Shown one piece after another: positions 8,785 through 63,365 of a DNA stretch of 64,000 bases. Source of the stretch: a virus. Its lineage: Duplodnaviria; Caudoviricetes. The position numbers and the translations under genes were made by a program. Within the stretch, counting starts at the first letter, position 1, and every line of letters starts with the position of its first letter. The notes below the pieces were generated by a model. The model was given only the letters and a program-made list of their open reading frames with translations. It made no database searches and was not told the DNA's origin. The DNA is taken from positions 1 through 64,000 of IMG/VR virus record IMGVR_UViG_3300047561_001970, one strand, 5' to 3'.

Positions 8785-8811
8785 TTGCTTTTCGTTTTTG
8801 TAGTATATAAT
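8785..8811 (+). promoter_or_regulatory. sigma70-like promoter
   Basis: TTGCTT-N15-TATAAT, 7 nt before GTG 8819. Confidence 0.45.
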
Positions 8812-8818
8812 AATCCTT

Positions 8819-9547
8819 GTGAATGTAAATATTCCAGATAAAAAACTCTTTATAAATGGCTTTCTTCAACCATTGAGTAAACTAAATGATAGCTGTGTGG
8901 TAACTCTGGATGGTGAGGGATTTTCAAGCTTGGTTTGTACCTCTGATACTTCAGTAATATTGCATTCGCAATACAAAGTTAATACTGATATTGATGTGCC
9001 TGTTTTTTTAAATATTTCGGATATTAAAAAGGTTATTAAAGCATTTGAATGTATTAGTACAGACAGTTTCACAATTGTTGTGGATAAGAATAATATCAAC
9101 TACAATGGTCCAGAGATACGCTTTAAGTATCACTTACTTGAGGATGGTATCATCACTGCACCCAAAGTGAATGTATCAAAAATAGCTAGTCTAAACTTCC
9201 CAATTGAGTTTACCATTCAATACAAATCACTCATTGAGCTGCTCAGAGGATCCACCTTTGCCTCAGAGAGCAACAAATTATATCTTTACTCAAAAGAGGG
9301 TAAGATTTTCGGTGATCTTACCGATCGAGCCCGGCATAATGTTGATAGTATCTCAATACCTCTCTGTGAGTACAAAGGTGAAGAATTAACAAATCTTTGC
9401 TTGAACTTTGAATTGATTAGAATAATTAGTAGTGTGAGAGTAAAGCAGTTAGAGTGTAAGATTAATCAAAAATTAGGTGTTGTCCTCTTTCAATTGATCG
9501 ATGGTCCTGTAAAAACTCGCTACATAGCGTCGTCTTTAATCAAATGA
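8819..9547 (+). CDS. gp45: Sliding clamp
   Basis: 242 aa with an alpha/beta two-domain pattern (FLNISDIKKVIKAF, RFKYHLLEDGIITAP, NFELIR, RYIASS); replication context. Confidence 0.75.
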   Translation: MNVNIPDKKLFINGFLQPLSKLNDSCVVTLDGEGFSSLVCTSDTSVILHSQYKVNTDIDVPVFLNISDIKKVIKAFECISTDSFTIVVDKNNINYNGPEIRFKYHLLEDGIITAPKVNVSKIASLNFPIEFTIQYKSLIELLRGSTFASESNKLYLYSKEGKIFGDLTDRARHNVDSISIPLCEYKGEELTNLCLNFELIRIISSVRVKQLECKINQKLGVVLFQLIDGPVKTRYIASSLIK

Positions 9548-58556: not shown

Positions 58557-60029
58557 ATGAAATCAATCAGACCGACAACGGCCTATATTGATGAGTCTCG
58601 CGCCAAAGCGTTGCTCGAAAAGTGGAAGCCAGTTTTGGATTACACTTCAGACAACGTCAGGCCCATTGAAGACGATCACACTCGCTTAAATACAGCTATG
58701 CTCTTGGAAAACCAAGAGTCCTGGTGTATTGGCGAAGCGAACGTTGCCGGTGGAACAGGCTCGGTATTCGGTGGTTCATACAGTGGTACAGGTGGAATGG
58801 GTGGCCAAGGCGGTGCTTTTGGCAACGCGTCCCCCCAAGGCGACTGGTATGCAACTGGCGATTCCCGCTTGCCCAAGATACTCATCCCAATGATTCGTAG
58901 AACGTTCCCCGAGCTAATCACCAATGAAATTGTAGGCGTACAGCCCATGGGCGGACCAGTAGGTCTTGCCTTTGCTTTACGTTATAAGTATTCCGCTAAC
59001 CAGCTAGGTAATGATGGCGTCGACGGTTCCGGCACAAATGCCGGTGCCGCTCTCGGCAGCCCTCAATCCGCCGCTGCAGGCAAAGAACTTGGCTACCAGT
59101 ATCTCGATACCCGTTACACGGGCACATCGAGCTCTAAACTCTCCGGTGGCGATGCCTTGGCAGCCTCTCTCTTCCCCTCAATCGGGGCAGATCAGGGCGT
59201 TGCTCAGGTCCTCGCTAACTTCGAATTGACGGGTAAAATCCCTCAGATCGAAGTTTCGTTTGAAAAAACGGCCGTCGAAGCTGGTACTCGTAGACTTGCT
59301 GCACGCTGGTCTGTGGAACTCGAACAGGATCTTAAGAACATGAATGGCATCGATATCGATACCGAACTCACCAACGCTATGTCGTATGAGTTGCAGGCCG
59401 AAATCGATCGCGAAATGATTGTTCGTATGATCCAAGTTTCGCTGAATGCTGGAGCCGGTACAGGTTATTCTGTATGGTCCCCCGCTTCCGCGGATGGTCG
59501 CTGGTTAGTAGAGCGCAATCGCGACTTCTACCAACGTTTGATCATCGAGGCTAACAGAATCGCAGTTCGTAACCGTCGTGGTGCTGCCAACTTTATAGTT
59601 GCAACACCTCGCGTTTGCGCGATTCTCGAGATGCTTCCTGAGTTTCAATGGGTGCCCGTCCAAGGCAATGTCAACACTCAACCTGTTGGCGTAGCCAAGG
59701 TAGGCAACCTAGGTGGTCGTTTCAACGTATACCGTGATACACGCACAGAAGCCCAATATGAGGGTGGATTGCGTGGTACGCGCGTAGAGTACGCCCTATT
59801 GGGCTACAAAGGACCAGAGTTTTATGACACTGGTATCATCTACTGCCCGTACATCCCGGTTATGGTACAACGTACAATTGGCCCCAATGACTTCAGCCCC
59901 CGTGTTGGTCTTCTGACCCGCTACGGTGTTGTTGATAACATCTTTGGCGCTAACTTGTATTATCATACCATCTTGTTGAGCGGTCTCGGTCAAGCGTTCA
60001 CGCCCGGTACACAATCTGTGTACTTCTAA
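58557..60029 (+). CDS. gp23: Major capsid protein
   Basis: LLEKWKPVL, LIPMIRRTFPELITNEIVGVQPMGGPVGLAFALRY, RRLAARWSVELEQDL, YCPYIP, F-S-PRVGLLTRYG. Confidence 0.98.
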   Translation: MKSIRPTTAYIDESRAKALLEKWKPVLDYTSDNVRPIEDDHTRLNTAMLLENQESWCIGEANVAGGTGSVFGGSYSGTGGMGGQGGAFGNASPQGDWYATGDSRLPKILIPMIRRTFPELITNEIVGVQPMGGPVGLAFALRYKYSANQLGNDGVDGSGTNAGAALGSPQSAAAGKELGYQYLDTRYTGTSSSKLSGGDALAASLFPSIGADQGVAQVLANFELTGKIPQIEVSFEKTAVEAGTRRLAARWSVELEQDLKNMNGIDIDTELTNAMSYELQAEIDREMIVRMIQVSLNAGAGTGYSVWSPASADGRWLVERNRDFYQRLIIEANRIAVRNRRGAANFIVATPRVCAILEMLPEFQWVPVQGNVNTQPVGVAKVGNLGGRFNVYRDTRTEAQYEGGLRGTRVEYALLGYKGPEFYDTGIIYCPYIPVMVQRTIGPNDFSPRVGLLTRYGVVDNIFGANLYYHTILLSGLGQAFTPGTQSVYF

Positions 60030-60121: not shown

Positions 60122-60129
60122 TATAAATA
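60122..60129 (+). promoter_or_regulatory. T4-type late promoter
   Basis: TATAAATA, 4 nt before ATG 60134. Confidence 0.85.
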
Positions 60130-60133
60130 ACAT

Positions 60134-61219
60134 ATGGCCATAGTACCACTTTCTGACTTAAAAACTTCATTCTCATCTGGCCACATTCCAAGCTCCAATG
60201 ATTTTGCAAACTTAATTGACACCACCAGCGCTCTACCCTCAGGTGGTATCATTGGTTCAGTATACACAACAAACTTGACGCTAGTGCAAGGCGCGACCGG
60301 GATCCCCGTGATTATAGGTGGTAATACCTATTATCTGCCTGTGTTCACCACAGTCACTGCACCTTCACCAAACCAAACAGCATACACCACCACAGTGAGA
60401 CAAACATATCCAAATGCAATGCTGGCAGAAACTGTGGGTGCAAGATGTGCCACAGTCATACAGAGTCTGTGTGGTTATGCACCAGGTGATGTGATTGCAG
60501 CAGCTTGCATATGCTCAGATGATAAAAATGCTCCCATTTTCCCCAACAACACATTTGGTCAATACCCCACATCTTTGCAACAATTTTCTGGGCCATTCTT
60601 CGCAGGTGGCATTGGTGGTTATCCTTTCCCAGGCATTGTGGGGCTGTTTGCATGGATGAGCCATGTGACCACACCTGGTGCATTGTTCATATATGTGCAC
60701 CCACACATTGGCATCACTCAGAGTGGTCAGGTGGGGTTCATGAAGCGCCGAGGTCAACAAGGCAATCTGGATCGAACATGTGGTGCTGTGAATGCAGCAC
60801 AAGCCAGAATTGTGGGTACACTGAGTGCAACAGCACCTGTATTCCCAAGTGCAGAATTTACTGTTAATGATTTTCAACAATATACTCTGGTGAATGCACT
60901 GTATTCCAACAAAACCACACGCAATGCACTCACAGCAGCTGCACCAGTGCAAGGTGGCACATATGCCCAGAGAATGAAGATAGCTACTGATGCTATTCTG
61001 GTTGCAGCATTGAGTGCAGTGGAAACAATTTTGCCCATATCTTATGGTGCCTTCTTCCAGGGTGAAAACACAGTGGATGTGTTTGTGCATGCAGGCACAT
61101 TCATCAATGTGGATGATGGTTACAGTGCTTACATAGACACCATTGCATTCAAGAAATACAATCCAGTCACACAGACATTCACCACCCTCACCAATGCTTT
61201 CACAGCAGCTTTTGTTTGA
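60134..61219 (+). CDS. LCIB/LCIC-family beta-carbonic anhydrase with structural-type N-terminal module
   Basis: CSDD, GPFFAGGIGGYPFPGIVG...SHV, LFIYVHPHIGI, RRGQ, TCGA: the LCIB-family signature with Cys/His/Cys Zn ligands and Asp/Arg. Confidence 0.85.
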   Translation: MAIVPLSDLKTSFSSGHIPSSNDFANLIDTTSALPSGGIIGSVYTTNLTLVQGATGIPVIIGGNTYYLPVFTTVTAPSPNQTAYTTTVRQTYPNAMLAETVGARCATVIQSLCGYAPGDVIAAACICSDDKNAPIFPNNTFGQYPTSLQQFSGPFFAGGIGGYPFPGIVGLFAWMSHVTTPGALFIYVHPHIGITQSGQVGFMKRRGQQGNLDRTCGAVNAAQARIVGTLSATAPVFPSAEFTVNDFQQYTLVNALYSNKTTRNALTAAAPVQGGTYAQRMKIATDAILVAALSAVETILPISYGAFFQGENTVDVFVHAGTFINVDDGYSAYIDTIAFKKYNPVTQTFTTLTNAFTAAFV

Positions 61220-61480
61220 TACAGTTCAAACAAATAAACTTATTTAATGCTTCACCCTCGCACCGTATACGGCGCAGCATTTTGCACCTGATGTCACCAC
61301 CAGGATTGGACTATATCTTCACATGTTTGTGCTGCTTGTTCGTGCTGGTTATTAAGGATTCCTGTTCCTCCAGTAGTCTCTACACCTTCCAGAGAAGCGT
61401 CTCTGGCTTGGCTCGGGATTGTCTCCACAGGAGAGTTTCCCCGAATTAAAGCAGTAGGGGCCATTGTTTCAAAGATCTGA
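61210..61480 (-). ncRNA. Group I ribozyme (intron core P3-P9 with P7.1 insertion), free-standing
   Basis: P AAUUCGGGGAAAC, Q CAAUCCCGAGCCAAGC, R GAAGGUGUAGAGACUA, S GUGAAGAUAUAGUCCA. P3 CUGCUU/AAGCAG, P7 GACUA/UAGUC with bulged A, P8 and P9 with GUGA loop all pair. Confidence 0.9.
61211..61234. terminator. Hairpin between convergent transcripts (possible weak terminator)
   Basis: TTTGTTTGA-TACAGT-TCAAACAAA, 9 bp, overlaps the CA stop codon; no strong U-tract on either side. Confidence 0.45.
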
Positions 61481-61483
61481 TAA

Positions 61484-61491
61484 TATTTATA
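61484..61491 (-). promoter_or_regulatory. T4-type late promoter preceding the ribozyme
   Basis: TATAAATA overlapping the stop of the upstream gene; no credible CDS follows. Confidence 0.7.
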
Positions 61492-62509
61492 CATAAACAT
61501 ACAAAGAATGTAAGTACCCTAAACCTAATCCGTCACCAGACACATGCACAGGTCCTGCACTCTTATATCTACCATGGTACTTAGCTGGTTTAAAATATTG
61601 TCCATCAGGGTATGTTACTGGATTAAAAGTCCAGCGATAAGCAGGCATAATGCTTGCATCTTGCAGTTTGTTGCTGTTGGTTTCAAAGGTTTCTGCCCCC
61701 CACATTATTCCTGTTCCTGAAGCTGGAATAGTAAAAAACCCTACTTGCCATTTATTAATGGCCATGTTGAACAATATGGTACCATCAAATGCCAGTACCC
61801 CACCTGTACTAGTTAACTGATATACTGGACCAAAATTATTACCATTGGCATCTGTATAGGAATCAGCTTTTTTAAAATATTCACCTTCAAATGTGCCACC
61901 ATCAGGCCCACCAGTTGTTAAGAAACCTTCTTGTGTAACAGTTTGTCTTCCTTGTTGTGGTCTCAATTGCCTGGATCCCCACATGCACCAGCTTATGATC
62001 AACCTAGCAGAACATGTCAAAGGCCGTGTAGAGCCTGTGCGATTTTTAATCCAAGCAGTTAAACTGGATTTGAATGCTGCACTGTTGTATTTGCTGTCAT
62101 TGATAATTTTTGTGAATTTAAAATTAGGGTATGAATAAAAAAGAGCTGCATCTGGCACATCTCTTATTCTTTTGATATTGTATGCTTGATGTCCGCTCAT
62201 AACATAATCTGTTGATGCATTAGCTGCCGATAAAGAAAAGCTGTGCATGGTTATGTATCTTTGAACCAGTCCTACTTTGCCACTTGTGGAGTATTTGGCA
62301 TCTAAATCACTATTTGCCTCACCACCATATCCATCATGTATCACATAACTATTGTTATAATATTCACTAATTTTTCCGCTATCTCTTGCTTGACCATCAT
62401 ATGTTATGAGAAGTGGTCGGCTTCGAGGGTAATTTTGAGGAGTACTCACACCATCTACTACCGAAATGGAAGTCTTCACAAACTGACTGGGCTGAGTTGC
62501 AATCATCAT
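61487..62509 (-). CDS. Hypothetical structural/fibre-associated protein
   Basis: 340 aa from ATG 62509 (ATGA overlap with the upstream gene); G/S/T/aromatic-rich. Confidence 0.75.
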   Translation of the reverse strand: MMIATQPSQFVKTSISVVDGVSTPQNYPRSRPLLITYDGQARDSGKISEYYNNSYVIHDGYGGEANSDLDAKYSTSGKVGLVQRYITMHSFSLSAANASTDYVMSGHQAYNIKRIRDVPDAALFYSYPNFKFTKIINDSKYNSAAFKSSLTAWIKNRTGSTRPLTCSARLIISWCMWGSRQLRPQQGRQTVTQEGFLTTGGPDGGTFEGEYFKKADSYTDANGNNFGPVYQLTSTGGVLAFDGTILFNMAINKWQVGFFTIPASGTGIMWGAETFETNSNKLQDASIMPAYRWTFNPVTYPDGQYFKPAKYHGRYKSAGPVHVSGDGLGLGYLHSLYVYV

Positions 62510-63357: not shown

Positions 63358-63365
63358 TATTTATA
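63358..63365 (-). promoter_or_regulatory. T4-type late promoter
   Basis: TATAAATA, 6 nt before ATG 63351. Confidence 0.75.

What the first reader, a model, noticed from the sequence alone, without database searches (positions are those of the whole stretch)
61222..61480. Flanks fit a naturally circularly permuted group I intron that would release a 24-nt RNA circle
Seen (minus strand): after P9, AU (61306-61305) can pair as P9.0 with AU before G61278, giving a 3' splice site AAAAUG/CUG; td ends AUAAUG/CUA, from memory. The next 24 nt (61277-61254, CUGCGCCG-UAUA-CGGUGCGAGGGU) contain a 6-bp hairpin and end in GGGU. That GGGU pairs with the upstream guide GCCC with a U-G wobble at U61254, so a 5' splice site lies downstream of the 3' splice site. 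The 5' leader AAAC-AAUG (61469-61462) pairs exactly with downstream CAUU and GUUU, which are separated by a self-contained AAAUA-AGUU-UAUUU hairpin. This closes the two RNA ends. Established: this order (3' intron half, exon, 5' intron half) is the engineered PIE circularisation design, and natural permuted group II introns making RNA circles are known. I know of no described natural permuted group I case in phage. Inference: a late-expressed circle-making ribozyme. Caveats: P1 has only 4 bp plus a 4-nt bulge, P10 is weak, and AAUGCU/AGCAUU could instead be a P9.1-type helix.
Basis: inference. Interest (0 to 1): 0.85.

Follow-up and report, generated by a model that had tools for sequence, protein, structure and literature searches.

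The report
Back-to-front group I ribozyme in phage
A T4-like phage carries a complete self-splicing-type (group I) RNA enzyme that interrupts no gene and has its cutting site behind it instead of in front, so it should cut its own transcript and probably release a 24-base RNA ring; I found no published natural case of this layout in phages.

Summary
A group I core (Rfam RF00028, 62.5 bits) lies on the minus strand just after the stop codon of a conserved 340-aa gene. The guide GCCC (61461-61458) has no conserved GGGU partner upstream. A GGGU (61257-61254) lies 24 nt after a G at the usual terminal-G position (61278).

I found the same layout in at least 34 distinct ribozymes from about nine uncultured-phage lineages. 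The U-G wobble is kept in 29 of 29 aligned members. The next pair occurs as C-G, U-A and G-C with no breaks.

A T4-type late promoter box (TATAAATA, 61491-61484) is exact in all five close homologues. The RNA therefore probably starts about 18 nt before the guide and has no upstream exon.

- The claimed pairing of the two RNA ends is no better than chance.
- AAUGCU/AGCAUU is a real, covarying helix.

Most likely this is a natural "ribozyme-first" permuted group I ribozyme. It would cut after U61254, and the 24-nt circle is a probable second-step product. No RNA data could be obtained, so catalysis is inferred.

Earlier notes from this scan describe the same layout on other DNA.

The parts
61487..62509 (-). 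Conserved 340-aa gene of unknown function. It ends ...GLGLGYLHSLYVYV* with stop codon UAA at 61489-61487, and the ribozyme follows it.
   Evidence: All six family members end in YLHSLYVYV*. The only changes in the last nine codons are synonymous, so the tail is translated and is not intron sequence. No Pfam or PHROG match.
61484..61491 (-). T4-type late promoter box TATAAATA overlapping the stop codon. The predicted transcript start is near 61479.
   Evidence: Exact in 5 of 5 close homologues, and also in L030, L024 and L165. At most one mismatch in 23 of 31 permuted members against 9 of 40 other introns of the subfamily. Elsewhere in the window the same box lies 4-6 nt before start codons, for example 60122-60129 before 60134 and 63358-63365 before 63351. 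The transcript start itself is inferred.
61287..61505 (-). Group I catalytic core as matched by Rfam RF00028. The model's 'P1/P2' part (61505-61470) is a forced fit onto the stop-codon and promoter region and has no U-G splice site.
   Evidence: 62.5 bits against a gathering score of 50, E = 1.8e-13. The insertion between P7 and P3' (P7.1/P7.2) is typical of subgroup IA.
61458..61461 (-). Internal guide sequence G-CCC. The wobble G is 61461. A 3-nt linker (CUA) joins it to P3, and there is no P2.
   Evidence: The wobble G lies exactly 13 nt before J3/4 in 18 GCCC and 5 GGCC members, and also in the canonical relative L074.
61449..61454 (-). P3 5' strand CUGCUU, which pairs with AAGCAG at 61337-61332.
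   Evidence: 99.4% of cells paired, and 4 of 6 pairs show compensatory changes across 29 sequences.
61309..61313 (-). P7 3' strand UAGUC, which pairs with GACUA at 61378-61374 and forms the G-binding helix.
   Evidence: Both strands are invariant in all 29 aligned members.
61287..61304 (-). P9 hairpin CCUGGUG-GUGA-CAUCAGG.
   Evidence: It closely resembles T4 td P9, CUGCAUG-GUGA-CAUGCAG.
61278..61278 (-). Candidate terminal G (omega G). The 3' splice site would be AAAAUG|CUG.
   Evidence: It lies 9 nt after P9, as in canonical relatives. The context matches td AUAAUG|CUA. Its use in catalysis is inferred.
61276..61281 (-). 5' strand AAUGCU of the closing helix. It contains the terminal G and pairs with AGCAUU at 61251-61246.
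   Evidence: 100% paired, with the inner pair C-G in three sequences and U-A in two. An equivalent helix of different sequence is present in the other lineages.
61254..61277 (-). 24-nt segment between the two splice-site-like positions. It holds a hairpin (61275-61270 with 61265-61260, loop UAUA) and is the predicted circle.
   Evidence: 5 of 6 hairpin pairs carry compensatory changes. The sequence is otherwise not conserved.
61254..61257 (-). GGGU, the P1 substrate strand. The predicted cleavage is after U61254.
   Evidence: the U-G wobble is kept in 29 of 29 sequences, and the next pair is C-G in 23, G-C in 4 and U-A in 2. Its position is conserved.
61246..61251 (-). 3' strand AGCAUU of the closing helix, 2 nt after the predicted cleavage site.

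Best explanation
This is a natural "ribozyme-first", circularly permuted group I ribozyme. It belongs to the phage IA type that lacks P2 and is not an intron in any gene.

Transcription from a T4-type late promoter that overlaps the upstream stop codon starts about 18 nt before the guide sequence, so the RNA has no 5' exon. The guide GCCC (61461-61458) instead pairs with GGGU (61257-61254). That GGGU sits in an internal loop of a hairpin domain downstream of the core.

Step 1 (inferred): free guanosine or GTP attacks after U61254. This detaches the downstream RNA with the G added to its 5' end. In the homologues that downstream RNA is the tail-fibre message, which starts about 20 nt further on.

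Step 2 (inferred, less certain): detachment frees the strand that held G61278 in the closing helix. G61278 then enters the G-binding site, and the 3'-OH of U61254 attacks after G61278. This releases the 24-nt segment as a circle with junction ...GAGGGU-CUGCG and a roughly 200-nt free ribozyme.

The likely biological purpose is self-removal from, or end-definition of, late transcripts in a phage whose late promoters normally abut start codons. The circle may be only a by-product.

Shown: the core, the layout, its conservation and the covariation. Inferred: the transcript start and all the chemistry.
For: - Core: group I core above Rfam's cut-off here, in four homologous loci and in five other lineages. 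P7 and J8/7 are invariant in 29 members. The ribozyme is 85-90% identical between homologues whose adjacent gene is only 60-76% identical at the DNA level.
- No conventional 5' splice site: the only nearby upstream GGGU (61520-61517) is absent from all homologues. The nearest upstream GGGU there lies 272-1078 nt before the guide. The last nine codons show only synonymous changes, so they are coding.
- Downstream GGGU: it lies at a fixed position in 10 relatives.
- P1 counts on 29 sequences: G-U 29/29; next pair C-G 23, G-C 4, U-A 2, none broken; third pair C-G 29/29.
- Guide position: the guide G sits at a fixed 13 nt from J3/4, exactly as in the canonical relative L074, which has an ordinary local P1 hairpin.
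- Second type of permutation: L019 and L024 carry an intact GGGU-loop-GCCC hairpin after the core, plus a 16-27 bp covarying helix that joins tail and leader.
- Late promoter box: conserved.
- Splice-site contexts copy T4 td.
- An engineered Tetrahymena construct with the same order circularises at about 80% (PMC10415121).
Against: - There are no RNA data of any kind.
- P1 is only 4 bp, and no P10 is evident.
- The terminal G is base-paired in the closing helix in the ground state.
- The 24-nt segment is conserved in fold but not in sequence, and its length ranges from 22 to about 125 nt between lineages. This argues against a sequence-specific role for the circle.
- The ends of the P1 alignment were partly chosen by complementarity, so the P1 counts are not fully independent.
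- An alternative pairing of GGGU with AUGC around G61278 is also compatible with the data.
- In this window no gene follows the ribozyme on its strand, so the purpose of cutting here is unclear.
Confidence: 0.5

Rival explanations
1. Cleavage-only processing ribozyme. The layout and the P1 pairing are the same, but only the first step happens (guanosine attack, or hydrolysis, after U61254). The ribozyme cuts itself off the downstream RNA or defines an RNA end. G61278 serves only as part of the closing helix, and no circle forms.
For: In lineages c and g the cut site lies 3-40 nt before the start codon of a virion structural gene (L040 downstream gene = phrog_5838). In this phage, late boxes normally lie 4-6 nt before start codons. 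One cut would therefore restore a short leader with no ligation. The segment between the sites varies in sequence and length. P10 is absent, and the terminal G is paired.
Against: A G in a td-like AAUG|CU context is kept at the canonical distance after P9 in all members. The helix places both sites within a few nucleotides of each other. Once step 1 leaves a 3'-OH bound in P1, step 2 is the expected chemistry, and it works in the engineered analogue.
Confidence: 0.28
2. Catalytically silent structured RNA. GCCC/GGGU is a tertiary pseudoknot that stabilises a former intron, which now serves as a 3'-end protector or 5'-leader structure. No cleavage occurs.
For: P1 is short. GGGU lies in an internal loop, as a peripheral contact would. 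The element sits at an operon end here, in L005 and in Flavobacterium phage immuto, where a terminator-like hairpin follows it.
Against: The whole catalytic core (P7, J8/7, J6/7, P3-P8) is invariant or covarying across distant lineages. The terminal pair is always a U-G wobble (29/29), which is the hallmark of a splice site rather than of a structural helix. A purely structural pair should also appear as U-A or C-G.
Confidence: 0.12
3. Conventional intron at the 3' end of the 340-aa gene. The 5' splice site is the upstream GGGU (61520-61517) and the 3' splice site is G61278, giving a protein that ends ...GLGLG-SAPYTVRG*.
For: That GGGU matches the guide, and the join is in frame with a stop at 61253-61251.
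Against: The upstream GGGU is absent in every homologue, which have GGA or GCU codons there. The tail YLHSLYVYV* that this splice would remove is invariant, with synonymous changes only. The downstream reading frame is not conserved as protein: it meets a stop after 2 codons in L005 and has an unrelated sequence in L007. Transcripts from the late box would lack this exon.
Confidence: 0.03

Closest known systems
T4 td intron (subgroup IA2) and the canonical P2-less relative L074 found here
   Same: Same core family. The same guide/substrate pair is used: td has GGGU with GCCU, and L074 has GGGU with GCCC at the identical 13-nt distance from J3/4. P9 is similar, and so is the 3' splice-site context AUAAUG|CU.
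   Different: In td and L074 the GGGU strand lies upstream in a 5' exon, and splicing rejoins a coding sequence. Here it lies 24 nt downstream of the terminal G, no gene is interrupted, and there is no homing endonuclease.
Engineered ribozyme-first circularisation construct (Tetrahymena; Cui et al. 2023, PMC10415121) and permuted intron-exon (PIE) constructs
   Same: Identical order: guide, core, terminal G, RNA to be circularised ending in U, then a 3' tail. The described chemistry is also the same: guanosine attack at the downstream 5' splice site, followed by back-attack on the 3' splice site.
   Different: Those constructs are man-made and use a 9-nt P1, a designed P10 and a 45-nt antisense arm. 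The natural RNA has a 4-bp P1, no evident P10 and no significant end-to-end pairing in this lineage. It has instead a helix that joins the two splice-site regions.
[quoted passage not shown] 2021, PMC8637638)
   Same: They are natural permuted self-splicing ribozymes that stand alone, interrupt no ORF and release RNA circles.
   Different: They belong to a different ribozyme class with different chemistry (branching), and they occur in bacteria rather than phages.
Back-splicing giant group I intron of mushroom-coral mitochondria (Chi et al. 2019, as cited in PMC8637638)
   Same: It is a natural group I RNA in which a 5' splice site lies downstream of the 3' splice site on the precursor.
   Different: There the permutation comes from transcription around a circular genome, and its purpose is to join real coding exons. 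Here a compact ribozyme flanks a 24-nt non-coding segment.
Lariat-capping (GIR1) ribozyme
   Same: It is a group I-derived ribozyme that sits ahead of a gene and processes the 5' end of that message rather than splicing.
   Different: GIR1 lacks P1, has a rearranged junction and forms a 3-nt lariat. This RNA keeps the guide, the U-G wobble and the terminal G, and it gives no Rfam match other than RF00028.

Membership tests
Group I catalytic RNA (Rfam RF00028) | Conserved core helices P3-P9 with the P3/P7 pseudoknot. | tested here: met
   62.5 bits against a cut-off of 50. P3 is 99% paired, with compensatory changes in 4 of 6 pairs.
Group I catalytic RNA (Rfam RF00028) | G-binding helix P7 and the J8/7 strand are intact. 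| tested here: met
   GACUA/UAGUC and the J8/7 motif are invariant in 29 members. This was tested at the sequence level only.
Group I catalytic RNA (Rfam RF00028) | P1 substrate helix with a U-G wobble at the cleavage site. | tested here: met
   GCCC/GGGU. The wobble is kept in 29 of 29 sequences, and the neighbouring pair covaries. The substrate strand lies downstream of the core.
Group I intron in the strict sense (a spliced intervening sequence) | The 5' splice site lies upstream of the core, and two exons are rejoined into a functional gene. | tested here: not met
   There is no conserved upstream GGGU. The upstream ORF ends at its own conserved stop codon, and the downstream frame is not conserved.
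Group I intron in the strict sense (a spliced intervening sequence) | Self-splicing activity. | not testable with these tools
Permuted intron-exon / ribozyme-first circularising RNA | The 3' splice site precedes the 5' splice site on one transcript, with a short RNA between them. | tested here: met
   G61278 precedes U61254 by 24 nt. This order is conserved in at least 34 ribozymes.
Permuted intron-exon / ribozyme-first circularising RNA | Complementary arms that bring the RNA ends together. | tested here: not met
   The leader-tail duplex in the window is no better than shuffled controls (z = +0.96). Such arms are convincing only in lineage f (L019, L024).
Permuted intron-exon / ribozyme-first circularising RNA | Formation of a circular product. 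| not testable with these tools
   No RNA data were available.
Lariat-capping ribozyme (GIR1) | No P1; a rearranged three-way junction; a match to its own covariance model. | tested here: not met
   The only Rfam match at the gathering score is RF00028, and a guide and a wobble pair are present.

The most novel reading that the evidence does not exclude
Phages of many lineages encode a family of natural ribozyme-first group I RNAs. These are transcribed from their own late promoters, make small circular RNAs in infected cells, and at the same time add a guanosine or GTP to the 5' end of the released late message. Under this reading the circle or the new 5' end has a function of its own, such as message stability, leaderless translation or evasion of host RNA surveillance, and is not merely a by-product.
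Probability: 0.3. Interest if true: 0.92.

Novelty: new variant of a known kind. Interest (0 to 1): 0.85.

Why it matters
- Group I ribozymes have been studied for forty years almost entirely as introns. A widespread natural form that splices nothing would be a new biological use of this ribozyme: it carries its substrate behind the core and sits between late promoters and structural genes.
- It would be the group I counterpart of the permuted group II introns described in 2021.
- It would show that the permuted intron-exon or ribozyme-first trick used to make therapeutic circular RNA already exists in nature. The natural versions are compact (about 220 nt), lack P2 and could be mined as new circularisation scaffolds.
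- It makes a concrete question testable: do phages use ribozymes to set the ends of late messages in genomes where promoters abut start codons?

Tried and rejected
No expression evidence could be obtained.
- Metagenome scan: a 15-base core pattern returned 120 chance matches and no ribozyme.
- Protein-based search of viral contigs found no relatives of the 340-aa gene.
- Two automatic detectors for the guide/target/helix layout were positive in 19% and 62% of shuffled controls. A third picked spurious long G-U-rich pairings. I dropped all three. Instead I used a fixed-position rule for the guide and curated alignments.
- Leader-tail pairing was tested by duplex energy against shuffled tails in 25 members. 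It is not significant in the window or in most lineages.
- A sigma-70 promoter I thought I saw ahead of lineage g (L095) was not found by the promoter scan. I make no such claim.
- No intrinsic terminator follows the ribozyme in the window.
- The Rfam model's own P1/P2 assignment (61505-61470) was rejected. That hairpin has G-U in the wrong orientation, overlaps the stop codon and the late box, and is weakened by a synonymous change in L005.
Later scripts took their motifs from the files.

Full report
**What is there.** Rfam finds one family in the window, a group I core at 61505-61287 on the minus strand (62.5 bits, cut-off 50). It begins at the end of an ORF whose product, 340 aa counted from the MMIATQ start, ends ...GLGLGYLHSLYVYV*. 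The ORF has no Pfam or PHROG family. The surroundings are a T4-like structural region:
- a gp23 major capsid gene at 58557-60029;
- virion-structural and tail-fibre-like ORFs upstream on the minus strand;
- a convergent plus-strand gene ending at 61219.

The record is an 85-kb virus contig, about 40% complete.

**Checking the stated features.**
- Guide: G61461-CCC.
- P3: CUGCUU (61454-61449) with AAGCAG (61337-61332).
- P7: GACUA with UAGUC.
- P9: 61304-61287.
- G61278 sits in AAAAUG|CUG, nine bases after P9.
- The 24-nt stretch 61277-61254 has a 6-bp hairpin and ends in GGGU.

Both splice-site-like contexts here therefore copy those of td.

**Is it an ordinary intron?** No.
- Five homologues of the protein exist, and all end in the same nine residues. 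Each of the four loci tested carries a group I core directly after the stop codon.
- Within those last nine codons the only differences are synonymous (UAC/UAU, UUA/CUG, UUG/CUG, GUU/GUA). The tail is therefore under protein-level selection and is not intron sequence.
- The one upstream GGGU that could serve the guide (61520-61517) is absent from every homologue. Their nearest upstream GGGU lies 272 to 1078 nt before the guide.
- The reading frame after G61278 is not conserved as protein.

**The downstream partner.** In all ten close relatives GGGU lies 130-134 nt after a fixed core anchor. An exact-pattern scan of viral contigs with a 21-base core motif gave 50 loci, and a shorter motif gave more, 145 distinct ribozymes in all. 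Some are ordinary tRNA or nrdD-type introns. At least 34 share the layout seen here, in about nine lineages.

In these ribozymes the guide's wobble G lies exactly 13 nt before J3/4 (14 nt in lineage d). This is the same position as in L074, a canonical relative with a normal local P1 hairpin, GGGU|GG-AGUU-CC-GCCC.
- Of 18 ribozymes with GCCC at that position, 17 have no local upstream partner and do have GGGU downstream.
- Five with GGCC there have GGCU downstream. In four of them it lies at +132/133.
- The two Flavobacterium-phage-type members have GUCC with GGAU.
- Lineage d has GCCU with AGGU in three of five members.

Counts on an alignment of 29 sequences running from guide to target:

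| P1 pair | Result |
|---|---|
| Wobble pair | G-U in 29/29 |
| Second pair | C-G 23, G-C 4, U-A 2, none broken |
| Third pair | C-G 29/29 |
| Fourth pair | C-G 25, U-A 2, unpaired 2 |

The ends of this alignment were partly chosen by complementarity, so the counts lean towards the pairing. The independent support is threefold: the position is conserved within lineages, the wobble is invariant, and the guide sits at a fixed site.

**A second kind of permutation.** L019 and L024 have no guide before P3. They carry an intact GGGU-loop-GCCC hairpin after the core. It is followed by a 16-27 bp helix between the 3' tail and the 5' leader, and this helix differs between the two loci while staying complementary. 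This is the arrangement expected if the break lies in the P2 loop rather than the P1 loop. It is separate evidence that these RNAs place the 5' splice site behind the terminal G.

**The 3' domain.** Among the five close homologues the hairpin inside the 24-nt segment has compensatory changes in 5 of 6 pairs.
- It contains G61278 and ends 2 nt after the predicted cut. The two sites are thus held together, with GGGU in an 8-nt internal loop.
- Equivalent helices of unrelated sequence occur in the other lineages.
- The same variable base also covaries with a base just before GGGU. RNAalifold prefers a pairing of AUGC with GGGU, so alternative conformations are possible.

**Own promoter.** I followed a lead from another first-stage note on this stretch. 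The T4 late-promoter motif TATAAATA lies at 61491-61484 and overlaps the stop codon.
- It is exact in all five homologues and in L030, L024 and L165.
- It has at most one mismatch in 23 of 31 permuted members against 9 of 40 other introns of the subfamily.
- The motif is not over-represented in the window as a whole: 10 copies against 7.3 expected.
- Some copies lie 4-6 nt before start codons. The two I checked are 60122-60129 before 60134 and 63358-63365 before 63351.

The ribozyme RNA would thus begin near 61479, about 18 nt before the guide (in L007 only a few nt before it). A transcript like this has no 5' exon at all. In L001, L003 and L007 a tail-fibre gene (Peptidase_S74) starts about 20 nt after the cut site. 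In lineage c a full-length virion structural gene starts 3-12 nt after it. In the window, in L005 and in phage immuto no gene follows on that strand.

**Selection.** Between homologues the ribozyme is 85-90% identical, whereas the adjacent gene is only 60-76% identical. P7 and J8/7 are invariant across all lineages.

**Mechanism.** The most economical reading is as follows.
1. The guide binds the downstream GGGU.
2. Guanosine attacks after U61254.
3. The downstream RNA leaves with the strand that had locked G61278.
4. G61278 docks, and U61254 attacks it. This gives a 24-nt circle and a free ribozyme.

An engineered Tetrahymena construct of the same order does exactly this at about 80% efficiency (PMC10415121). 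My estimates are:
- the permuted pairing is real: about 0.85;
- step 1 occurs: about 0.8;
- a circle forms: about 0.5.

The segment is conserved only in fold, so the circle may have no role of its own.

**Literature.** Five completed searches of the paper library found no natural permuted group I ribozyme in phages or bacteria. The nearest cases in print are:
- natural permuted group II introns (PMC8637638);
- a coral mitochondrial back-splicing group I intron cited in that paper;
- engineered constructs.

Earlier notes from this scan describe the same layout on other DNA. I treated them as leads only.

Noticed in passing
window 60134-61219 (+): This 361-aa protein matches the LCIB/LCIC beta-carbonic-anhydrase family (PF18599, E = 4e-24, residues 111-275). 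It is encoded next to the major capsid gene, with a TATAAATA late box 4 nt before its start codon. A carbonic-anhydrase-like gene is unusual in a T4-like phage.
   Followed up: partly
L019:6042-6273 (-) and L024 about 8800-9150 (+): These two ribozymes are permuted at a different point. An intact GGGU-loop-GCCC hairpin lies after the core. A 16-27 bp helix between the 3' tail and the 5' leader covaries between the two loci, as if the P2 loop had been opened.
   Followed up: partly
L009:1386-1641 (+) (Flavobacterium phage vB_FspM_immuto_2-6A, MW353175.1): A cultured phage carries an unannotated member of this family (RF00028, 76.9 bits). It overlaps a 44-aa 'hypothetical protein' call (immuto26A_226), which is probably spurious. 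Its guide and target are GUCC/GGAU. A terminator-like hairpin with a U-run follows at about 1684-1713. This would be a convenient system for experiments.
   Followed up: partly
L095, L138, L152, L165 (lineage g): These ribozymes have the guide GGCC and the target GGCU, with a conserved segment of about 105-125 nt in between. Each sits 4-40 nt ahead of a gene for a lysine-rich protein (MPKKTNKKK...-like).
   Followed up: no
window 61281-61276, 61258-61254 and 61251-61246 (-): The base after C61277 (U here, C in three homologues) covaries with two different partners, A61258 and A61251. The GGGU region may therefore switch between pairing with the 3'-splice-site region and lying free for the guide.
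   Followed up: partly
window 61517-61520 (-): A window-specific GGGU in the coding tail matches the guide. A splice from here to the base after G61278 would be in frame. It is absent from all homologues, so it is probably a coincidence, but it could compete for the guide on read-through transcripts.
   Followed up: yes
window, 10 sites listed: Several TATAAATA boxes lie 4-6 nt before start codons. This suggests leaderless or near-leaderless late messages in this phage. I checked only two of the ten against ORF starts.
   Followed up: partly
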